From NCBI GenBank assembly GCA_015065785.1, contig SVPR01000007.1, positions 35,634-99,633 of the forward strand: 64,000 nucleotides of DNA, given 5' to 3'. Both the position numbers and the translations under genes were made by a program. How positions within the stretch are numbered: the stretch's first letter is position 1; each line of letters opens with the position of its first letter. Under the pieces are notes generated by a model. It was not told the DNA's origin and ran no database searches. It worked only from the letters and a program-made list of their open reading frames with translations. Origin of the DNA: Oscillospiraceae bacterium. GTDB lineage: Bacteria > Bacillota > Clostridia > Oscillospirales > Acutalibacteraceae. Positions 16,527 to 64,000 of this stretch are shown in pieces.

Positions 16527-16763
16527 TGGGGCACCCTCCGTAAGGAAGGTGCCCCAGTTATATTCGCCTGACGGCGAGTTATATTGCTTCGCAGTTATAT
16601 GATGCTTATGCATCGTGATATTGCCTTTCGGACAGTTAAAATGCGAATATAATATCACGAAAGCCGATAGGCTTTCATATTACTTTGCTACTAGGCAAAA
16701 TATCACTGTGAGACCTGTCTCACAATATCACTTATTATTCTTGGTTTTTTATATAAAAACCAA
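16527..16763. repeat. array of ~10 dissimilar short hairpins joined by a constant heptamer (GTTATAT x3, GTGATAT, then ATATCAC x3 / ATATTAC)
   Basis: Plus-strand stems: 16527-16556 (12-bp), TCGCC/GGCGA 16564-16577, TGC/GCA 16585-16593, GATGC/GCATC 16601-16614, 16622-16634 (bulged), GAAAGCC/GGCTTTC 16659-16676, TTTGC/GCAAA 16684-16699, TGTGAGA/TCTCACA 16707-16724, TTGGTTTTT/AAAAACCAA 16741-16763. Heptamers at 16557, 16578, 16594, 16615 (forward) and 16652, 16677, 16700, 16725 (inverted). Confidence 0.8.
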
Positions 16764-17594: not shown

Positions 17595-18818
17595 ATGAAA
17601 CCAATCCGCACATTTTTACAACAAAATGCAATTAAATTGTGGTTAGGAATTGAAAAGCCTGTGTATGAGATTACAAAAGGCAGACATGCAAAAAACAGAT
17701 TTCTTTCTTCTGTTGATTTTCATCATGTAGGTACTAATGTAAAAATTATCAAAGAAACAAACAATGCAACATATATCGCAAAATTCAATGAAGATGGCAC
17801 CATTGATAACAGTGATTTTAAAATTCTCTCTACTACCGATATGCACACAGATGAGGATTATGATTTAAACGACAAAACCTATGATAGATTGTTTAAGCAA
17901 ATTCGTGACAACAAGCCTGATCTTGTAGTATTAACAGGTGACTGCATTCAATCTAAATACCAGCAAATTGATGCGATTCAGTTTGCCCAGATGATGGAAG
18001 AAATCGGTGTTTACTGGGCTTATGTTTTCGGTAATCACGAAGCAAGAGAAGAAAAAGAATACCATAAATATCTTCTTTTTAAAAGTCTTTCAGATTTCCC
18101 ACACTGCCTTTCAAAATTCGGTAATCCCGACCTTTTTGGTTACGGTAATTTCATTATAAATATTATGAATAGTGAAACTGAATTAAAACAATCTTTATTC
18201 TTCTTAGACTCAGGCAGAGATATTGTGGAAGCTCACGCACTTAATGACAATGTTCCAAAAGAAATGTGGAAAGGTTACGACTACATCAAGCCATCACAAA
18301 TCCATTGGTACGAAAATGAACTCAAGTCATTAAGAAGCATTTATGGCGAAGTAAAAAATATGCTTTATATGCATATTCCTATCCCTGAATATAAGTACGC
18401 TTTTAAATTAGATGAAAATGGCGACTATATGAGAAATGAAGACGGCACTCTTAAAAGAGACGAAAAAGACCAACAGCTTATACGAAATGAGAATGCAGAA
18501 ATCATTTATGGCAGAATGTTTGAAGCAGTTGGTTGTTCGCCTTTTAACTCAGGCCTTTTTGAAAGTATGAAAAAGAATAATGCAGTAGCAATTTTCTCAG
18601 GTCACGACCATGTTAATGACTACGCATTTAAATTAGACGGCATTTATCTTGTATATTCTCAATATGCAAGCTACAACGCTTATAATTTAGGTCATTACGA
18701 AAACGATGGACTCATTACTTTACCTGAAAGCGAATGGCAACAGGGTGTTACAATTACGACAGTAAAAAATGATGGTTCAATAGAGCTTAAGCAGATTTTC
18801 AATAGTATATACCTTTAA
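17595..18818 (+). CDS. calcineurin-like metallophosphoesterase
   Basis: 407 aa. TDMHTDED, LTGDCIQ, FGNHE, SGHDHVND motifs. Confidence 0.8.
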   Translation: MKPIRTFLQQNAIKLWLGIEKPVYEITKGRHAKNRFLSSVDFHHVGTNVKIIKETNNATYIAKFNEDGTIDNSDFKILSTTDMHTDEDYDLNDKTYDRLFKQIRDNKPDLVVLTGDCIQSKYQQIDAIQFAQMMEEIGVYWAYVFGNHEAREEKEYHKYLLFKSLSDFPHCLSKFGNPDLFGYGNFIINIMNSETELKQSLFFLDSGRDIVEAHALNDNVPKEMWKGYDYIKPSQIHWYENELKSLRSIYGEVKNMLYMHIPIPEYKYAFKLDENGDYMRNEDGTLKRDEKDQQLIRNENAEIIYGRMFEAVGCSPFNSGLFESMKKNNAVAIFSGHDHVNDYAFKLDGIYLVYSQYASYNAYNLGHYENDGLITLPESEWQQGVTITTVKNDGSIELKQIFNSIYL

Positions 18819-18820
18819 AA

Positions 18821-18866
18821 ATGTGTACCCATCAGTAAAATCAGAGATTTTACTGATGGGTACATT
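18821..18866. terminator. bidirectional intrinsic terminator
   Basis: About 18-bp stem TGTACCCATCAGTAAAA / TTTTACTGATGGGTACA, flanked by A-run and T-run. Confidence 0.8.
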
Positions 18867-19951
18867 TAAAATATTTCTTTCATTAAATTTTCTGTGATTT
18901 CTTCAATTACCGAAAAATCGGTTGCTCTTATATAATAATCCTCTAATCTGTCGTGAATTCCTTTTGCTACCGATATTTTCTTTACTGCCTCCGAAAGCAT
19001 TTCCTGTTGTGTTTTTTTATTGAATTTCAAGCGCTCCTTGATTCCCTTAAGAGCTTCTTTATTTAAAAATCTTGTAGCGTGAACAACCTTTTCATCACCA
19101 AGAAGTGATTTATGAGAAGAATTTTCTGTGAAGAAGCAAAGCTTTAATTCAGGAATTATTATATGTTCTATTTTCGCAGTCGGAAAAATCGGGCAATAGC
19201 AAGCATAAATATCATAGCCATTTTCTAAAGCGTATTCTGCAATATAATCCATAATTGCAGGGGTGCAAACCGAAAAATCGTCTTCAATAGTAATTATTTT
19301 TTCGCTCAATGCCACTATTGTGTCATACTGCAAAACCACACCATCAGGTGTAACTGCACTTAAAAATCTTCTGTTAAGATTACCTCTTTCAGCACCTTTT
19401 CTTGTCGGAATTTCTCTTTTACAAAGTCTTTCAGCATAGTTTCTGACCTTTTCTCTGTCTGTAATTTTATCGCAAAGCTTCATTGCTTCAAGCTGGAGCT
19501 TTGATGTCACTAAGATATATTCTGAAGCTTTTTTATGCAAACGCTTATTTTCATCCGCTAAATTCATAATTGCAGTTTTATATTCATTTAAGTACTTTTT
19601 ATCCCACGCCTCACCAAGATTTATAATACACTCAGTAACACCCGGATAAGTTGCATCAAATGTATGCGGTGCAGTGCCGTCAAGAATTGAAAAATTGATT
19701 TCAGGTGCTATTACAATATCAAGTGAATTCGGGTCAGCACTGCAATAGCCTCTTTCAACGAAATACCCTTTTTTCTCTAATTCAACAGCCAGTTTTTTCA
19801 TCAGTGTGGATTTACCTGTGCCTGGTCCACCTTTTAAAATATAATGCATTCCATCTGCCTTATTATCATAAGCAGAAGAAAAAAGTGAAGTATATTCTTT
19901 TCTTGAATTCGCACCAAAGAAAAATGATACAGGTGTAATTGTTTTAGTCAT
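18866..19951 (-). CDS. uncharacterised P-loop NTPase
   Basis: Walker A GGPGTGKSTLMKK. ATG 19951 (MTKTITP...) follows AAGGAG, whereas the track start at 19978 has no RBS. Walker-B-like SILDGTAPH. Confidence 0.7.
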   Translation of the reverse strand: MTKTITPVSFFFGANSRKEYTSLFSSAYDNKADGMHYILKGGPGTGKSTLMKKLAVELEKKGYFVERGYCSADPNSLDIVIAPEINFSILDGTAPHTFDATYPGVTECIINLGEAWDKKYLNEYKTAIMNLADENKRLHKKASEYILVTSKLQLEAMKLCDKITDREKVRNYAERLCKREIPTRKGAERGNLNRRFLSAVTPDGVVLQYDTIVALSEKIITIEDDFSVCTPAIMDYIAEYALENGYDIYACYCPIFPTAKIEHIIIPELKLCFFTENSSHKSLLGDEKVVHATRFLNKEALKGIKERLKFNKKTQQEMLSEAVKKISVAKGIHDRLEDYYIRATDFSVIEEITENLMKEIF

Positions 19952-20033
19952 AACATCACTCCTTGATTGATAAACCAAAATTTATCACTTACAGAGCATA
20001 CTATGAATTTTTGTGGCTTAATGTTACAAAAAT

Positions 20034-20217
20034 AATGCAGAATGCAGAGTGCAGAATGCAGAGTTTCGGAACTGCGTTGGCAATTATAAAGTGCTGAATG
20101 CTGAGTGCTGAGTGCTGAATTTCGGAATGTGCGTTGGCAATTATAATTCGGAATGCGTAATGCGTAATTCGGAATTGAAGGGTCTGCGACGCAATTATAA
20201 TTAAATAACAAAAGATA
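20034..20217. repeat. heptad blocks A (AATGCAG x4, 20034-20063), B (AGTGCTG x4, 20090-20119) and C (TTCGGAA TGCGTAA TGCGTAA TTCGGAA, 20147-20174) separated by 26-27-nt linkers TTTCGGAA(C/TG)TGCGTTGGCAATTATAA
   Basis: Read directly. Linkers at 20064-20089 and 20120-20146, variant TTGAAGGGTCTGCGACGCAATTATAA at 20175-20200. Palindrome AATTATAATT recurs at 20139 and 20193. Confidence 0.85.
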
Positions 20218-20263
20218 AGTTCTATCATTTAAAGTTTTTCGTAAACTAAAAATGATAGAACTT
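20131..20263. repeat. direct repeat copy 1 (133 bp, identical to 20680-20812)
   Basis: Base-by-base visual comparison shows no mismatch over 133 bp. Similarity extends about 12 bp further left with 1 substitution and 1 indel. Confidence 0.85.
20218..20262 (-). terminator. conserved core hairpin of the composite element, copy 1
   Basis: Minus strand AAGTTCTATCATTTTTAGTTT-acgaa-AAACTTTAAATGATAGAACTT, followed by ATCTTTTGTTATTT. Confidence 0.7.
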
Positions 20264-20285
20264 ATTTATTTTCAGCGAAGCAATA

Positions 20286-20627
20286 CCTTCTTTGAAAAGA
20301 AGGGGGACCATTCTTCATATAAACTATATTCCATAATATTTTTCAAGCGTGTAGCAAAGTTATTTTCAAAATTTAAGTTAAAGCGGAATGGTGGAAAATT
20401 GATATAAAAATACGCTTTAGCGTACGGACACGAGGTTAATATTATTAATACTCCAACCTCATTGCCTTGCACTACCGTGCATTTTAATATCAATTCTCCA
20501 CCAAGCAAGCTTGGTCCCCCTCTTTTTCAAACGAGGTCGGGCTTCGCGTTCGGTTCACGCGTTGCACTCGATTGCTTTGTTAAAATAAAAACTACTCCCA
20601 CTACTGCGGGCGACCACAGGTCTGCCC
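20286..20627 (-). ncRNA. candidate structured RNA, unclassified (multi-stem domain in the unique core)
   Basis: Long-range stems 20297-20310/20512-20524 (13 bp, 1 bulge) and 20389-20405/20487-20503 (17 bp). The second encloses three perfect hairpins (20411-20424, 20432-20460, 20469-20480). Further hairpins at 20501-20514, 20532-20570, 20608-20627. The single non-Watson-Crick pair in the 17-bp stem is G-U only on the minus strand. Confidence 0.4.
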
Positions 20628-20637
20628 CTACCATTTT

Positions 20638-20669
20638 AGAATTAAGAATTAAGTATTAAGAATTAAGAA
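20638..20669. repeat. heptad block D (AGAATTA AGAATTA AGTATTA AGAATTA AGAA)
   Basis: Read directly. Followed by linker copy 20670-20695 and block C copy 20696-20723. Confidence 0.85.
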
Positions 20670-20679
20670 TTTCGGAACT

Positions 20680-20812
20680 GCGTTGGCAATTATAATTCGG
20701 AATGCGTAATGCGTAATTCGGAATTGAAGGGTCTGCGACGCAATTATAATTAAATAACAAAAGATAAGTTCTATCATTTAAAGTTTTTCGTAAACTAAAA
20801 ATGATAGAACTT
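20680..20812. repeat. direct repeat copy 2 (133 bp), offset 549 bp from copy 1
   Basis: Identical to 20131-20263. Confidence 0.85.
20767..20811 (-). terminator. conserved core hairpin of the composite element, copy 2
   Basis: Identical to 20218-20262. First terminator-like structure downstream of the GPH transporter gene (stop at 20927). Confidence 0.7.
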
Positions 20813-20852
20813 GTTGTTTTTATTGACTAATAATTATAATCAAGGCGAAGCC

Positions 20853-20893
20853 TTCCGAAATTCAGCACTCAGCATTCAGCACTCAGCATTACT
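20853..20893. repeat. heptad block B' (inverted copy of block B plus TTTCGGAA)
   Basis: The reverse complement AGTAATGCTGAGTGCTGAATGCTGAGTGCTGAATTTCGGAA aligns with 20089-20127, differing only at three A/G positions. Confidence 0.8.
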
Positions 20894-20926
20894 TTGGCTT
20901 ATCATTCAGCTCTTGAGCGAAGCGAA

Positions 20927-22471
20927 TTATTTTTTCCTTGCTGCAATTTCTGCAACCATCTCTGCCTGGCGTTTTTCTGTGAGCTTGTAGAAGAACATTG
21001 GAACTGCACAAGCGAACATACTGATAACACCTGCACCTACGAGCATATTCCAGAGAGTGTTTGCACCCTCTTGTGAAATGAAGCCTGTTTCAGCGTCGAT
21101 ACCTGCTGCTGCGAATGAAATAACACCGATAAATGCACCAACTGCCATACCGATTTTGTTGATAAGTGTCTGCATAGCAAAGCAAATACCCTCACCGCGT
21201 TCACCTGTTTTCCATTCAAGATAATCAACAGTATCACCAATCATTGCATAAGTAATAATGTTGTTAACACCTTGTGGAATACCGAGAAGAACAAGTGCAA
21301 TAGCACAAATTACTAATTTCCAAGGAGCGTCGTAACCAACGAAATACATAATTCCCATTACAACGCCACCGAAAATGTGAACTGCAACATAAGCCCATTT
21401 CTTTGTGAATTTCTTTGACATCCACGGAACGAGTAATGAAGCAACAAGACCGCCCGGAACAACAAGAAGTGTTATTAAACTATACATACCCTCATTCTGA
21501 AGAACATACTTTGCGAAATAAAGTCCGCCTGTGTATGTATAAACCATTCTCGCACCGCCGAGAATACCTGAAAGAACGATTAAAAGAAGCTCTTTATTTT
21601 TAAAGAGGAGCTTTAAGTTGTGACCAAGGCTTGGTGGGTTATCGTCTGCAGTGAAGCGTTCCTTTGTGTGCTTAAAGCCATAGAAGAACATTGGAACTGC
21701 TACAATAACAAGTACAACTGCACAAATGAAATATGTCATTTTAAGAGTGTCTGCATTTGCGAGCTCCTGACCTTTAATGACTGTACCAACAAAATTCTGA
21801 GCAACATCAGCAGTTACACCTTTATCAAGCATAATTTGTCCAATATCATCAACAGTATATTTATATTTTGAAGTAACAGCATTTGTAATAATAGGAACAA
21901 AAACAGTAACAATACCTGCACCTAATGTGCAAAGAAGACGGGTAATTGTAAGCATATTACCACGAACTACTGTGTCATTGGTCATACAGGTTGAAAGTCC
22001 CCAATAAGGAACATCTGCAACTGTGTAAACAACTGACCAGATAACATAGATAATTGCGATTATAATAAATGATGAGGTTGCTTTTGCCTGGAATGCAGGG
22101 AGGAAGCAAGCTAAAGTCATAATACCGATTGGAATTGCCATCCATTTAAGGTAAGGACGACATTTACCCCATTTAGTTCTTGTTCTGTCAACAATACTAC
22201 CCATAATAGGGTCATTAAATGCGTCAAAAATACGAGTACCGAGCATTAAATAAGCAACAGCCATTGAACCTGCAACAGAGCCTACTGTAACACCATCAGC
22301 ACCAAAAAGAAGCGCATCTGTTAAAAAGATTGTTAAATAGGAACCGATAATTGTACAAATAAAGTTCTGACCGAAGCCTGCTATACCGTAAGCAATGGCT
22401 TCTTTTGGTTGAAGGTTTCCGTCATTTGGTGTAGTGCCGTAAACCTTATGAAGTAAATCATTGATTTTCAT
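20927..22471 (-). CDS. GPH-family MFS sugar symporter
   Basis: 514 aa polytopic. FDAFNDPIMGSIVDRTRTKWGKCRPY signature loop. AAAGGTGA RBS. Confidence 0.8.
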   Translation of the reverse strand: MKINDLLHKVYGTTPNDGNLQPKEAIAYGIAGFGQNFICTIIGSYLTIFLTDALLFGADGVTVGSVAGSMAVAYLMLGTRIFDAFNDPIMGSIVDRTRTKWGKCRPYLKWMAIPIGIMTLACFLPAFQAKATSSFIIIAIIYVIWSVVYTVADVPYWGLSTCMTNDTVVRGNMLTITRLLCTLGAGIVTVFVPIITNAVTSKYKYTVDDIGQIMLDKGVTADVAQNFVGTVIKGQELANADTLKMTYFICAVVLVIVAVPMFFYGFKHTKERFTADDNPPSLGHNLKLLFKNKELLLIVLSGILGGARMVYTYTGGLYFAKYVLQNEGMYSLITLLVVPGGLVASLLVPWMSKKFTKKWAYVAVHIFGGVVMGIMYFVGYDAPWKLVICAIALVLLGIPQGVNNIITYAMIGDTVDYLEWKTGERGEGICFAMQTLINKIGMAVGAFIGVISFAAAGIDAETGFISQEGANTLWNMLVGAGVISMFACAVPMFFYKLTEKRQAEMVAEIAARKK

Positions 22472-41895: not shown

Positions 41896-41905
41896 TATGT
41901 TTTTT

Positions 41906-42025
41906 AGTGGTCAGTGGTCAGTTATTAAGTATAAAAGTTCTGCCATTCTTAGTTTACAAAAAACTAAAAATGACAGAACAAACTATTTTTATATCCAGCG
42001 ACTGACCACTGACTTACTGACCACT
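41906..42025 (-). repeat. complete composite element: arm (GTGGTCA heptads) / core hairpin / inverted arm
   Basis: Arms 41906-41923 (AGTGGTCAGTGGTCAGTT) and 42001-42025 (ACTGACCACTGACTTACTGACCACT) are complementary apart from one extra unit. The right arm overlaps the argF stop codon (42024-42026). Confidence 0.8.
41937..41979 (-). terminator. conserved core hairpin, copy 3; terminator of the arg operon
   Basis: Minus strand GTTCTGTCATTTTTAGTTT-tttgt-AAACTAAGAATGGCAGAAC followed by TTTTATAC. The two non-Watson-Crick positions are G-U on the minus strand and C-A on the plus strand. Confidence 0.75.
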
Positions 42026-43010
42026 ATTTAAGCGTAGCTAACATAACTGCCTTAATTGTATGCATTCTGTTCTCTGCCTCCTGGAATACAACTGATTGCT
42101 CACTTTCAAAAACATCGTCAGTAACCTCAACTGCAGTTCTGTTGAACTTATCGCAGATTTTTTTACCGATTTCTGTCTTTTTGTCGTGATAAGATGGAAG
42201 ACAGTGCATAAAGATTGTGTCTTTGCCTGTGTGTGACATTAACTCTTTATTTACTTGATATTTAGAAAGGTCGTTAATTCTTTCTGCCCATACAAGCTCA
42301 GGCTCACCCATTGAAACCCAGACATCTGTGTAAACAACATCTGCGTTTTTAACTGCAGAAACAGGGTCCTCCGAGAAAGTGAGTGTAGCACCTGTTGTCT
42401 TTGCAATTTTTTTGCATTCGCCAACTAAATCTGTATCAGGAAAATATTTTTTAGGTGCACAGGCAACAAAGTTCATACCCATTTTTGCACAGCCCACCAT
42501 TAAAGAGTTACCCATATTATATCTTGCATCGCCTAAATAAACGAAGTTAATGCCTTTTAAGTAGCCAAATTTTTCTTTAATTGTAAGAAAATCTGCAAGA
42601 ATCTGTGTAGGGTGAAATTCATTTGTAAGGCCGTTCCATACAGGAACAGAAGAATATCTTGCCAATTCTTCAACAACCTCTTGCCCGTAGCCACGATATT
42701 CAATTCCGTCATAAATAGAAGAAAGCACTCTTGCTGTGTCAGCAATACTTTCTTTTCTGCCTATCTGAGAAGCAGACGGGTCAAGGTAAGTAACGCCCAT
42801 ACCCAAATCTCTTGCCGCAACCTCGAAGCTACAACGGGTTCTTGTGCTTGTTTTTTCAAATATAAGAGCAATATTTTTACCCTTTAAAACCTCGTGAGAA
42901 ACATTATTTTTCTTTTGCTCTTTAAGCTCTGCCGCAAGGTCTATAAGATATTCAATTTCTTCGCTTGTGTAGTCAAGCAACTTTAAAAAATCTCTACCTG
43001 CTAAATTCAT
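42024..43010 (-). CDS. argF: ornithine carbamoyltransferase
   Basis: [17 protein letters not shown] motifs. 328 aa. Confidence 0.93.
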
Positions 43011-63865: not shown

Positions 63866-63868
63866 TTT

Positions 63869-64000
63869 CAGGAATCAGGAAGCAGAAATCAGAAATCAGG
63901 GCTTCGCTAAAATTAAATTCATCCTATCATTTTTAGTTGGTATTAAAACCAATTGGAATGATAGGATGACTCTTTACATTTATAATTTGGGTTGAAAACA
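63869..64000 (+). repeat. composite element on the plus strand, truncated by the window end: heptad block, GCTTCGC, spacer, core hairpin
   Basis: Block CAGGAAT CAGGAAG CAGAAAT CAGAAAT CAGG (63869-63900), GCTTCGC (63901-63907), core hairpin 63920-63968 with 5' arm CATCCTATCATTTTTAGTTGGT. The expected inverted arm would lie beyond position 64000. Confidence 0.7.

What the first reader, a model, noticed from the sequence alone, without database searches (positions are those of the whole stretch)
20286..20627. Unclassified multi-stem RNA-like fold in the unique core (minus strand)
Two long-range helices close a compact domain. AAGAAGGGGGACCA (20297-20310) pairs with TGGTCCCCCTCTT (20512-20524). 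Inside that, a 17-bp helix 20389-20405/20487-20503 encloses three perfect hairpins (20411-24, 20432-60, 20469-80), which gives a four-way junction.

The only non-canonical pair in the 17-bp helix is A-C on the plus strand but G-U on the minus strand. The minus strand is the transcription direction of both flanking genes.

The 3' strand of the outer helix overlaps an alternative local hairpin, CCTTCTT-tgaa-AAGAAGG (20286-20303). That gives mutually exclusive structures of the kind riboswitches and attenuators use. Conserved terminator hairpins lie on both sides.

No ORF with an RBS is present. I could not match tmRNA, RNase P, SRP, 6S, T-box, group I/II intron or common riboswitch signatures by eye.
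Basis: partly seen in the sequence, partly recalled or inferred. Interest (0 to 1): 0.7.

Follow-up and report, generated by a model that had tools for sequence, protein, structure and literature searches.

The report
Folded intergenic repeat element, not riboswitch
The multi-stem fold is real, but it is one copy of a previously undescribed ~275-base repeated, non-coding element scattered between genes of uncultured gut/rumen Clostridia, so it is a new family of a familiar kind of bacterial "structured repeat", not a unique RNA gene or riboswitch.

Summary
The region folds far better than shuffles on both strands (z -7 and -8).

The "unique core" is not unique. Window 20275-20547 (sense = minus strand) is one copy of a ~275-nt element. 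I found about 10 further distinct copies in Acutalibacteraceae MAG and metagenome contigs, at unrelated intergenic sites.

All copies share one architecture, a gap-free four-way junction:
- P1: a 27-bp outer helix, which is also 35-nt terminal inverted repeats.
- P2: a small variable hairpin.
- P3: a 14-17-bp helix capped by three hairpins.
- P4: a short helix closing a constant 79-81-nt AT-rich loop.

P2 (five stem versions), P4 and hairpin b show compensatory changes. P1 and P3 are invariant.

Several results argue against an RNA gene or riboswitch:
- Copies are mosaic: the P3 cap is inverted in one lineage, P2 is replaced by 110 nt, the 5' arm is missing, or the copy is truncated.
- Orientation relative to neighbouring genes varies.
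- There is no conserved promoter, ORF or Rfam match.
- A 99.97%-identical strain lacks the element.

The best reading is a new family of BOX/ERIC/Correia-like structured intergenic repeats. Its function is not shown.

The parts
20275..20547 (-). Whole conserved repeat element (~273 nt), from GCGAAGC to GCTTCGC. Sense is defined as the window minus strand.
   Evidence: Homologous over this span to L009 (85%), L014, L017, L015 (two copies), L010, L013, L024, L023 and L026/L029. Conservation stops at both ends.
20513..20547 (-). P1 5' arm, the left terminal inverted repeat: GCGAAGCCCGACCTCGTTTGAAAAAGAGGGGGACC. It contains a self-complementary 18-mer.
   Evidence: Coordinates. Pairing is 99% across 10 copies and 19 of 22 pairs never vary. 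The arm is absent in L015b, and its GCGAAGCC tip is absent in L015a, L023, L024 and L026.
20503..20512 (-). P2 small hairpin AAG(CUUG)CUU, between the ACC and GGU shoulders.
   Evidence: Five stem versions, all complementary: AAGC/GCTT, AAGC-TTT-GCTT, GCC/GGC, GCGC-GTAA-GCGT, ATCGC/GCGAT. In L023 it is replaced by a 110-nt self-folding insert.
20489..20502 (-). P3 5' strand GGTGGAGAATTGAT, the inner inverted repeat.
   Evidence: Invariant in 11 of 11 copies. 14 pairs, 100% paired, with one fixed G.U.
20404..20488 (-). P3 cap of 85 nt (the 83-nt inner segment plus one flanking base at each end). It holds hairpin a (20468-20481), hairpin b (20426-20466) and hairpin c (20411-20424).
   Evidence: Coordinates. 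Reverse-complemented relative to the outer parts in L010, L013, L023, L024 and L026/L029. The three-hairpin fold is the MFE in 6 of 12 copies.
20390..20403 (-). P3 3' strand ATCAATTTTCCACC.
   Evidence: Invariant in all copies.
20310..20389 (-). P4: ATTC...GAAT stem closing an AT-rich, poorly structured 80-nt region.
   Evidence: Length is 79-81 nt in all 12 copies although the sequence varies. The closing pair changes from A-U to G-C in L026/L029. The interior has no consistent fold.
20275..20309 (-). P1 3' arm, the right terminal inverted repeat: GGTCCCCCTTCTTTTCAAAGAAGGTATTGCTTCGC. It includes the local hairpin at 20286-20303.
   Evidence: It is nearly invariant in all copies, including those that lack the 5' arm.
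20252..20281 (-). Conserved 3' flank GCTTCGCT-N16-TATCAT, leading into the terminator-like hairpin at 20210-20270.
   Evidence: The same 16-nt spacing, with a different spacer sequence, is seen next to most copies. It also occurs at window 63902-63930 and in L001 without the element.
20548..20640 (-). Separate module holding the GC hairpin GGGGCAGACC-TGT-GGTCGCCC at 20608-20628. It is not part of the element.
   Evidence: Not conserved in L009, L010 or L014. It recurs beside elements in L025 (same arrangement) and in L023/L024 (opposite orientation). It is single-copy in the window.
20130..20272 (.). Direct repeat D1, copy 1, carrying terminator-like hairpin 20210-20270.
   Evidence: 98% identical to 20679-20821.
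20679..20821 (.). Direct repeat D1, copy 2, carrying hairpin 20759-20819.
   Evidence: The near-identical strain L001 has a single copy and no element.

Best explanation
Window 20275-20547 is one copy of a new family of ~275-bp non-coding, nested-palindrome intergenic repeats. The family belongs to the same kind as pneumococcal BOX, enterobacterial ERIC and neisserial Correia elements, and occurs in uncultured Acutalibacteraceae (Clostridia).

Shown:
- The unit recurs at unrelated intergenic sites, with at least two copies in one genome.
- It keeps a gap-free four-way junction (P1-P4) whose variable stems change in a compensatory way.
- It is mosaic: modules are swapped, inverted, lost or expanded.
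- It is present or absent between 99.97%-identical strains. Here it sits inside a duplicated terminator module, and the difference is bounded by long direct repeats.

Inferred:
- It spreads and is lost as DNA, by recombination between the repeated modules that flank it (and possibly by an unidentified transposase).
- Its sequence is kept able to fold as a single strand.
- When a neighbouring gene is transcribed through it, it forms a very stable structured RNA block (about -105 kcal/mol for this copy). This block acts passively in cis, as a barrier to exonucleases or a processing and insulating element between transcription units. It does not sense a ligand.

No function has been demonstrated. 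It may be largely selfish DNA.
For: Repeat family:
- L009 and L010 come from one MAG, with 85% and 74% identity over about 280 nt.
- L013, L014 and two tandem copies in L015 came from a 20-mer scan.
- L017-L029 came from searches with translated spurious ORFs.

Fold:
- 99.6% of 527 pair cells are standard pairs, against 42-51% when the partners are slid.
- z is -6 to -15 in every copy.

Compensatory change:
- P2 has five stem versions plus a self-folding 110-nt insert.
- The P4 closing pair changes from A-U to G-C.
- Hairpin b pairs with different sequences in different copies.

Mosaicism:
- The P3 cap is inverted in one lineage.
- Trees built from the inner and outer parts are incongruent.
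- L015b lacks the 5' arm, and L025 is truncated after hairpin a.

Presence/absence:
- L001 is 99.97% identical over 7.8 kb but lacks 20080/20272-20659.

Non-coding:
- Reading frames are broken between copies, and there are no Pfam hits.

Context:
- The element occurs in a 5' leader behind a strong TTGAAT-N17-TAAAAT promoter in L017 (read).
- It directly follows a terminator T-run in L023 and L026.
- It is antisense to tandem flanking genes in L010 and L015.
- The window is ordinary chromosome with no transposase or recombinase.
Against: - No target-site duplication flanks any copy (flanks).
- No precise empty site was found. The L001 difference is a 606-bp block bounded by repeated modules.
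- No mobilising enzyme has been identified.
- Copy number is known only as at least 2 per genome, and there is one copy in this 64-kb window.
- 42 of 50 scored pairs never vary, so most helices carry no covariation information. The stems could be conserved as protein-binding DNA.
- No transcript data are available.
- Close orthologous pairs (L014/L017, L026/L029) differ mostly by helix-weakening changes. This fits neutral decay as well as it fits function.
- The constant length of P4, the strict conservation of P1/P3 and the fixed 16-nt spacing in the 3' flank are not explained by a passive role.
Confidence: 0.55

Rival explanations
1. Stand-alone structured non-coding RNA gene, transcribed from the minus strand between the two terminator hairpins. 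The four-way junction would be the functional RNA, and the family a multi-copy sRNA.
For: - Compensatory changes occur in P2, P4 and hairpin b.
- On the sense strand the P2 loops read CUUG and GUAA, which are stable RNA tetraloops (my own knowledge). The L014/L017 version of P2 is 4.4 kcal/mol better on the sense strand.
- The sense strand is more stable than the antisense in 9 of 10 copies.
- An extra stem is inserted at a fixed position in L023, as in the variable arms of known RNAs.
- Terminator-like hairpins lie on both sides in the window.
Against: - The upstream flanks are not conserved, and no sigma-70-like promoter was found upstream.
- Orientation relative to neighbouring genes is not fixed.
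- The P3 cap is reverse-complemented in L010, L013, L023, L024, L026 and L029, which changes every loop sequence of the putative RNA.
- Truncated and armless copies exist.
- In L023 and L026 the element starts right after a terminator T-run and lies upstream of the next promoter.
- There is no Rfam match.
Confidence: 0.15
2. Single-stranded-DNA structure used as a recognition site. Possibilities are the substrate of an HUH/RAYT-type transposase (as for REPIN or IS200/IS605-derived elements) or another replication or recombination site. The hairpins would matter in DNA and on either strand.
For: - Both strands fold very strongly.
- Orientation is independent of transcription.
- There is no target-site duplication, as in IS200/IS605-type mobility (my own knowledge).
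- The element tip GCGAAGC, and GCGTAAGC in the P2 of L014/L017, match the GCGNAGC/GCGNNAGC DNA mini-hairpin motif (abstract of PMC13037366).
- The stems covary, which selects for folding rather than for a duplex binding site.
Against: - No transposase, Rep or recombinase gene is present in the 64-kb window.
- Nothing was found in the phage, plasmid or viral collections.
- The element is much larger and more elaborate than REP/REPIN units.
- The mini-hairpin match is a 7-mer and could be chance.
Confidence: 0.12
3. Invertible DNA switch (inverton). The 85-bp P3 cap (20404-20488) would be flipped by a site-specific recombinase acting on the 14-17-bp inverted repeats, toggling what the locus expresses.
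For: - The cap occurs in both orientations among copies, while the asymmetric G/A position of the repeats stays fixed relative to the outer arms.
- Two independent metagenome contigs (L003, L004) end at the same base inside the cap, at window 20463. L025 diverges at the same point.
Against: - By the inner-domain tree, all inverted copies form one clade. One old inversion plus cassette exchange is therefore enough to explain the pattern.
- The cap is nearly symmetric, with a hairpin plus a T-run at each end on both strands. It carries no promoter-like site, so flipping would change little.
- No recombinase is present in the window.
- The contig breaks lie about 24 nt inside the repeat boundary, not at it.
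- The search for the predicted 135-aa ORF of a flipped allele found nothing, but the control ORF was also absent, so this test is uninformative.
Confidence: 0.08
4. Cis-acting riboswitch or attenuator that controls the downstream ATPase gene through mutually exclusive helices.
For: - Alternative pairings are real. Each P1 arm can fold on itself.
- The ACC/GGU shoulders allow P2 and P4 to grow at the expense of P1 and P3 (read).
- The element is in a 5' leader in L017.
Against: - The downstream genes are unrelated: an ATPase, a GNAT acetyltransferase operon, large secreted proteins, and convergent genes.
- In the window a terminator-like hairpin and 300 nt of repeats separate the element from the ATPase start.
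- Antisense placements exist.
- No known aptamer matches.
- No terminator or start-codon-linked SD sequestration is conserved.
Confidence: 0.04

Closest known systems
ERIC/IRU elements of Enterobacteriaceae (about 127-bp imperfect palindromes)
   Same: - Confined to intergenic regions.
- Long imperfect palindrome that folds as RNA.
- Found in either orientation.
- Size variants arise from insertions at fixed internal sites.
- Presence/absence differs between close strains.
- No ORF, and no clear transposition signature.

The ERIC properties are from my own knowledge.
   Different: - No sequence similarity.
- Twice as long.
- The fold is a four-way junction with a second three-hairpin junction inside, not a single hairpin.
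- The host is Clostridia.
- Copy number appears low.
BOX elements of Streptococcus pneumoniae (modular boxA-boxB(n)-boxC)
   Same: - Modular, mosaic build.
- The end modules are mutually complementary.
- Internal modules vary in number or are absent.
- Firmicutes host.
- Intergenic location.

The BOX properties are from my own knowledge.
   Different: - Unrelated sequences.
- Here one module is found reverse-complemented in one lineage.
- Another region (P4) has a strictly constant length.
Correia elements (CREE) of Neisseria, and bacterial MITEs in general
   Same: - Terminal inverted repeats (35 nt here).
- Non-coding.
- Size within the 50-800 bp range.
- Several copies per genome.

The MITE definition is taken from PMC11602168.
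   Different: - No 2-10-bp target-site duplication was seen.
- No cognate transposase is known.
- The only empty site seen differs by a 606-bp block bounded by repeated modules, not by a clean insertion.
REP/BIME/REPIN elements with RAYT transposases
   Same: - Extragenic palindromes combined with other short motifs into mosaics.
- Often located at gene ends next to terminators.

From my own knowledge.
   Different: - REP units are 20-40 nt and REPINs about 100 nt.
- No RAYT-like gene was seen here.
- The conserved GTAG-type motif was not looked for.
Invertons (phase-variable invertible promoters of gut Bacteroidales and Clostridia)
   Same: Short inverted repeats flank a segment that is found in both orientations.
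   Different: - The segment is only 85 bp.
- It is quasi-symmetric and has no promoter.
- Both orientations were seen only between different copies, never at one locus.

Membership tests
MITE | Terminal inverted repeats of at least 10-15 bp | tested here: met
   The 35-nt arms at 20513-20547 and 20275-20309 are 99% paired across copies. Some copies lack the outermost GCGAAGCC.
MITE | Small (50-800 bp), non-coding, several copies per genome at unrelated sites | tested here: met
   - 273-278 nt.
- No conserved ORF.
- Two copies on different contigs of one MAG.
- Two copies in L015.
MITE | Target-site duplication of 2-10 bp flanking each copy | tested here: not met
   The flanks of 10 copies were inspected at both candidate boundaries (GCGAAGC/GCTTCGC and ACCTC/GAAGGT). 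No direct repeat was found (sequences).
MITE | Precise empty site in a related genome; cognate transposase with the same ends | tested here: inconclusive
   L001 lacks the element, but the difference is a 606-bp block between repeated modules.
ERIC/BOX/Correia-type structured intergenic repeat | Repeated imperfect palindrome restricted to intergenic DNA, in either orientation, with modular or size variants | tested here: met
   - All 11 loci are intergenic.
- Both orientations relative to the flanking genes occur.
- Variants were seen.
ERIC/BOX/Correia-type structured intergenic repeat | Co-transcribed with neighbours and altering mRNA stability or processing | not testable with these tools
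   No expression data. The only hints are the promoter and terminator positions read from the sequence.
Inverton | Inverted repeats flanking the segment | tested here: met
   GGTGGAGAATTGAT and ATCAATTTTCCACC are invariant in 11 of 11 copies.
Inverton | Both orientations at the same locus within a population | tested here: inconclusive
   The search for the ORF that a flipped allele would create found nothing, but the control ORF of the observed allele was also absent. Exact look-ups were empty.
Inverton | Orientation-dependent promoter or other asymmetric signal, and a recombinase | tested here: not met
   No promoter-like site lies in 20404-20488. No recombinase is among the 38 window proteins scanned.
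Riboswitch / attenuator | Fixed position in the 5' leader of functionally related genes, with an expression platform | tested here: not met
   The downstream genes are unrelated and the placements vary, including antisense and post-terminator positions.
Any Rfam 15 family | Score at or above the family's gathering threshold | tested here: not met
   There is no hit in the region at gathering threshold. The best sub-threshold hits were 28 bits against thresholds of 47-63, all on the flanking AT-rich hairpin.

The most novel reading that the evidence does not exclude
The element is a portable, multi-copy structured RNA (or folded-DNA) module whose central three-hairpin cassette is actively flipped or exchanged between copies. 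In that case one recombination system would reprogramme many intergenic sites at once, a dispersed phase-variable RNA fold, not a passive repeat.
Probability: 0.08. Interest if true: 0.75.

Novelty: new member of a known kind. Interest (0 to 1): 0.4.

Why it matters
If this reading is right, an apparent orphan 'riboswitch-like' fold becomes a family that can be modelled and masked in ncRNA screens of gut and rumen Clostridia.

It also adds a structured-repeat family in a clade where, as far as I know, none is described. The family has unusual features:
- Two nested four-way junctions.
- A cassette found in both orientations.
- Strict length conservation of an unstructured 80-nt loop.

The repeat sits in a block of modular terminator-associated repeats that marks a strain-variable boundary. 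These modules may therefore be recombination substrates that shape gene content.

Tried and rejected
- **Rfam.** Searches at gathering and at E<=10 gave only chance hits on the flanking hairpin.
- **Coding potential.** Pfam on three ORFs inside the core gave nothing. Six-frame comparison of the copies showed no conserved frame.
- **Phages and plasmids.** blastn of the core found no match.
- **Viral contigs.** Three conserved patterns gave 0 hits.
- **Metagenome scans.** The first scan, with a 21-mer from the invariant block, gave 0 hits even though JGI contigs L003 and L004 contain it, so that collection is incomplete. Two of the five hits in the second scan (L012, L016) were chance matches inside polyketide-synthase-like genes.
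- **Genome scan.** Five of seven hits were chance matches in high-GC Actinomycetes and Caulobacter.
- **Promoter in the cap or in P4.** The scan found none. A TTGAAA box in P4 has no conserved -10, and the idea fails in L026.
- **P4 interior structure.** There is no consistent fold.
- **Target-site duplications.** None was found.
- **Defence-system link.** The downstream ATPase gave only a weak mads_8 hit, E 9e-7, and other copies have different neighbours.
- **Retron, T-box, tRNA-like, ribozyme ideas.** No reverse transcriptase is adjacent, there are no Rfam hits, and the stem sizes do not fit.
- **Flipped allele and exact ORF look-ups at this locus.** All were empty and uninformative.

Full report
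**Setting**

The finding lies in a 950-nt gap between two minus-strand genes. One is an MFS_2 transporter (20927-22471) and the other an AAA/STAND-like ATPase (18866-19954). The window is ordinary chromosome at about 37% GC. It carries hydrogenase/Nuo-like genes, an arginine biosynthesis operon, glycosidases and similar genes. No transposase or recombinase was found among the 38 proteins scanned.

The gap is a block of repeats:
- Tandem heptamer arrays lie at 20034-20145, 20640-20671 and 20853-20895.
- A 143-nt direct repeat occurs at 20130-20272 and 20679-20821 (98% identical). Each copy carries a long AT-rich terminator-like hairpin.
- The "core" lies between the two copies of the direct repeat.

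**Check of the observation**

The outer helix is longer than described: arms 20275-20315 and 20507-20547. Folding is far better than dinucleotide shuffles on both strands, with z -6.96 (minus) and -8.06 (plus). The equally strong fold of the plus strand already warns that this is a DNA palindrome as much as an RNA fold.

**It is a repeat family**

A gapped pattern built from the GC core of the outer helix hit two contigs of one Acutalibacteraceae MAG. They align to window 20547->20268 at 85% and 74% identity.

A 20-mer from a block invariant in these three copies then found L013, L014 and two tandem copies in L015 in metagenomes. Translating the spurious reading frames of the element and searching them as proteins gave L017-L025 and L026-L029.

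In total there are about 11 distinct copies at about 9 different loci. None occurs in the phage, plasmid or viral collections.

Conservation begins at GCGAAGC (20547) and ends at GCTTCGC (20275). It recurs beside other copies in either orientation.

**Anatomy**

All copies share one plan. Coordinates are for the window copy.

| Part | Window coordinates | Description |
|---|---|---|
| P1 | 20513-20547 with 20275-20309 | Outer helix; also the terminal inverted repeats |
| P2 | 20503-20512 | Small variable hairpin |
| P3 | 20489-20502 with 20390-20403 | Helix capped by hairpins a, b and c |
| P4 | 20310-20389 | ATTC/GAAT stem closing an AT-rich region |

- The four helices abut with no unpaired bases.
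- Every corner of the junction is ACC or GGU, so P2 and P4 can each grow by 3 bp at the expense of P1 and P3.
- Each P1 arm is itself a self-complementary 18-mer: CCTCNTTTGAAAANGAGG and CCTTCTTTTCAAAGAAGG.

On an 11-copy alignment, 99.6% of 527 pair cells are standard pairs. With the partners slid by 1-3 columns the figure is 42-51%.

**How much of this is covariation?**

Most of it is not. 42 of 50 scored pairs never vary. The four "double changes" in hairpins a and c are a by-product of the inversion described below.

Independent support comes from four places:
- **P2.** Five different, fully complementary stems exist. A 110-nt insert in L023 itself folds at -37.6 kcal/mol.
- **P4.** The closing pair changes from A-U to G-C in L026/L029.
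- **P1.** One pair shows a double change.
- **Hairpin b.** It keeps pairing with different sequences.

The three-hairpin cap is the MFE in 6 of 12 copies and lies within 2-5 kcal/mol in the rest. In this window's copy the rod form is 2.4 kcal/mol better.

The element therefore seems to be kept able to fold as a single strand. P1 and P3 could equally be conserved as duplex sequence.

**Which strand?**

The sense (window minus) strand is more stable than the antisense in 9 of 10 copies, by 3-14 kcal/mol. P2 loops read CUUG and GUAA on that strand. However, the fixed wobble positions number only two G.U against one C.A.

More importantly, the family has no fixed orientation:
- Sense with respect to tandem flanking genes in the window and in L026.
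- Antisense in L010 and L015.
- In a 5' leader behind a strong promoter in L017.
- Directly after a terminator T-run, and upstream of the next promoter, in L023 and L026.

**Mosaicism**

- The inner 83 nt of the P3 cap are reverse-complemented relative to P1, P2 and P4 in L010, L013, L023, L024 and L026/L029. Hairpins a and c swap places and their loops become complements. Window versus L010 scores 61/84 inverted and 51/85 direct.
- By the cap's own tree the inverted copies form one clade. By the outer parts they are scattered among standard copies. One old inversion followed by exchange of the cassette between copies is therefore enough.
- L015b lacks the 5' arm. Several copies lack the GCGAAGCC tip. 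L025 is cut after hairpin a, at the same point where contigs L003 and L004 end.
- P4 is 79-81 nt in every copy although its sequence and (weak) structure vary. I cannot explain this.

**Presence/absence**

Contig L001 is 99.97% identical to the window over 7.8 kb up to 20659. It then continues at 20272->20080 and diverges completely. It has one copy of the terminator module and no element. The ATPase side is replaced by other genes.

The 606-bp difference is bounded by the repeated modules. No copy shows a target-site duplication. This looks like gain or loss by homologous recombination between modules, not like a clean transposition.

**Interpretation**

The best fit is a new family of structured intergenic repeats of the BOX/ERIC/Correia kind. 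Such a repeat is propagated as DNA, kept foldable, and forms a very stable RNA block when transcribed through. A passive cis role in transcript stability, processing or insulation is inferred by analogy with those elements (my own knowledge). It has not been shown.

The rivals are:
- a stand-alone RNA gene;
- a folded single-stranded-DNA recognition site;
- an inverton;
- a riboswitch.

The riboswitch is essentially excluded by the varied contexts. The inverton could not be tested, because the flipped-allele search lacked a working positive control.

**Limits**

- Only about 11 copies were found, using exact-word and spurious-ORF searches. The ORF route favours inverted copies, which open a long frame.
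- There are no expression data and no read-level data.

Noticed in passing
window 20853-20895 with 20092-20127; 41900-42030; 63866-63975; L001 10998-11135; L023 1-180; L026 4020-4160: 'Heptamer-clamped terminators'. After a stop codon come 3-5 tandem heptamers, about 25 nt, a long AT-rich hairpin beginning ..TATCATTTTTAG.., a T-run, and then the reverse complement of the same heptamers. The heptamer sequence differs at every locus (GCTGAGT, TGGTCAG, TCAGGAA, AAAATTA, GGAAATA ...), but the two sides match (94% in the window, 725 nt apart). This locus-specific complementarity looks like covariation for a long clamp helix around the terminator. The closest report I found concerns single-sequence TAACTGA heptamer arrays (PMC4679880), which differ.
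   Followed up: partly
window 20252-20281 (-), 63902-63930 (+); L001 ~11040; 3' flank of most element copies: GCTTCGCW, then exactly 16 nt of variable AT-rich sequence, then T(A/T)TCAT. This occurs both after the 275-nt element and after plain heptamer arrays. The fixed spacing with a variable spacer is promoter-like, but the hexamers are not a sigma-70 consensus. TATCAT is also the start of the terminator hairpin's 5' arm.
   Followed up: partly
window 20594-20628 (-): A GC-rich hairpin module, GGGGCAGACC-TGT-GGTCGCCC, followed by CCCGCAGTAGTGGG and a T-run. It is single-copy in the window, but homologous modules sit next to elements in L025 (same arrangement) and in L023/L024 (opposite orientation).
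   Followed up: partly
window 16540-16740 (+): The only Rfam gathering-level hit in the window, Gut-1 RNA (16555-16626, 53.6 bits), lies within a run of small hairpins. Each hairpin is preceded by AGTTATAT or ATATCAC, and the run extends beyond the Rfam model.
   Followed up: no
window ~20080 and leftwards (ATPase 18866-19954, phosphoesterase 17595-18818): Synteny with the 99.97%-identical contig L001 ends at the repeat block. The genes to the left are replaced by unrelated genes in L001, so the repeat block marks a strain-variable boundary.
   Followed up: partly
L023 209-316: A 110-nt insert replaces P2 exactly, between GGGGGACC and GGTGGAG. It contains four GTGAAAT repeats and a GCGAAG...CTTCGC hairpin, and folds on its own at -37.6 kcal/mol.
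   Followed up: partly
window 20541-20547 and 20275-20281; P2 of L014/L017: The element tips read GCGAAGC on each strand, and P2 of L014/L017 contains GCGTAAGC. Both match the GCGNAGC/GCGNNAGC 'extraordinarily stable DNA mini-hairpin' motif (PMC13037366 abstract). This may be coincidence.
   Followed up: no
window 20518-20536 (-) and the 5' arm of all copies: In most copies the 5' arm reads ACCTCCTTT...AAAGGAGG. ACCUCCUUU is the anti-Shine-Dalgarno 3' end of 16S rRNA (my own knowledge). The arm is therefore an SD sequence paired to an anti-SD mimic. A mini-ORF, GTG-GAG-AAT-TGA, follows in every copy.
   Followed up: no
L003 and L004 contig ends (= window 20463); L025 ~1433: Two contigs from different JGI samples stop at the same base inside the P3 cap, just before hairpin b. 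L025 switches to unrelated heptamer sequence at the same point. This could be a recombination junction, population heterogeneity or an assembly artefact of the palindrome.
   Followed up: partly
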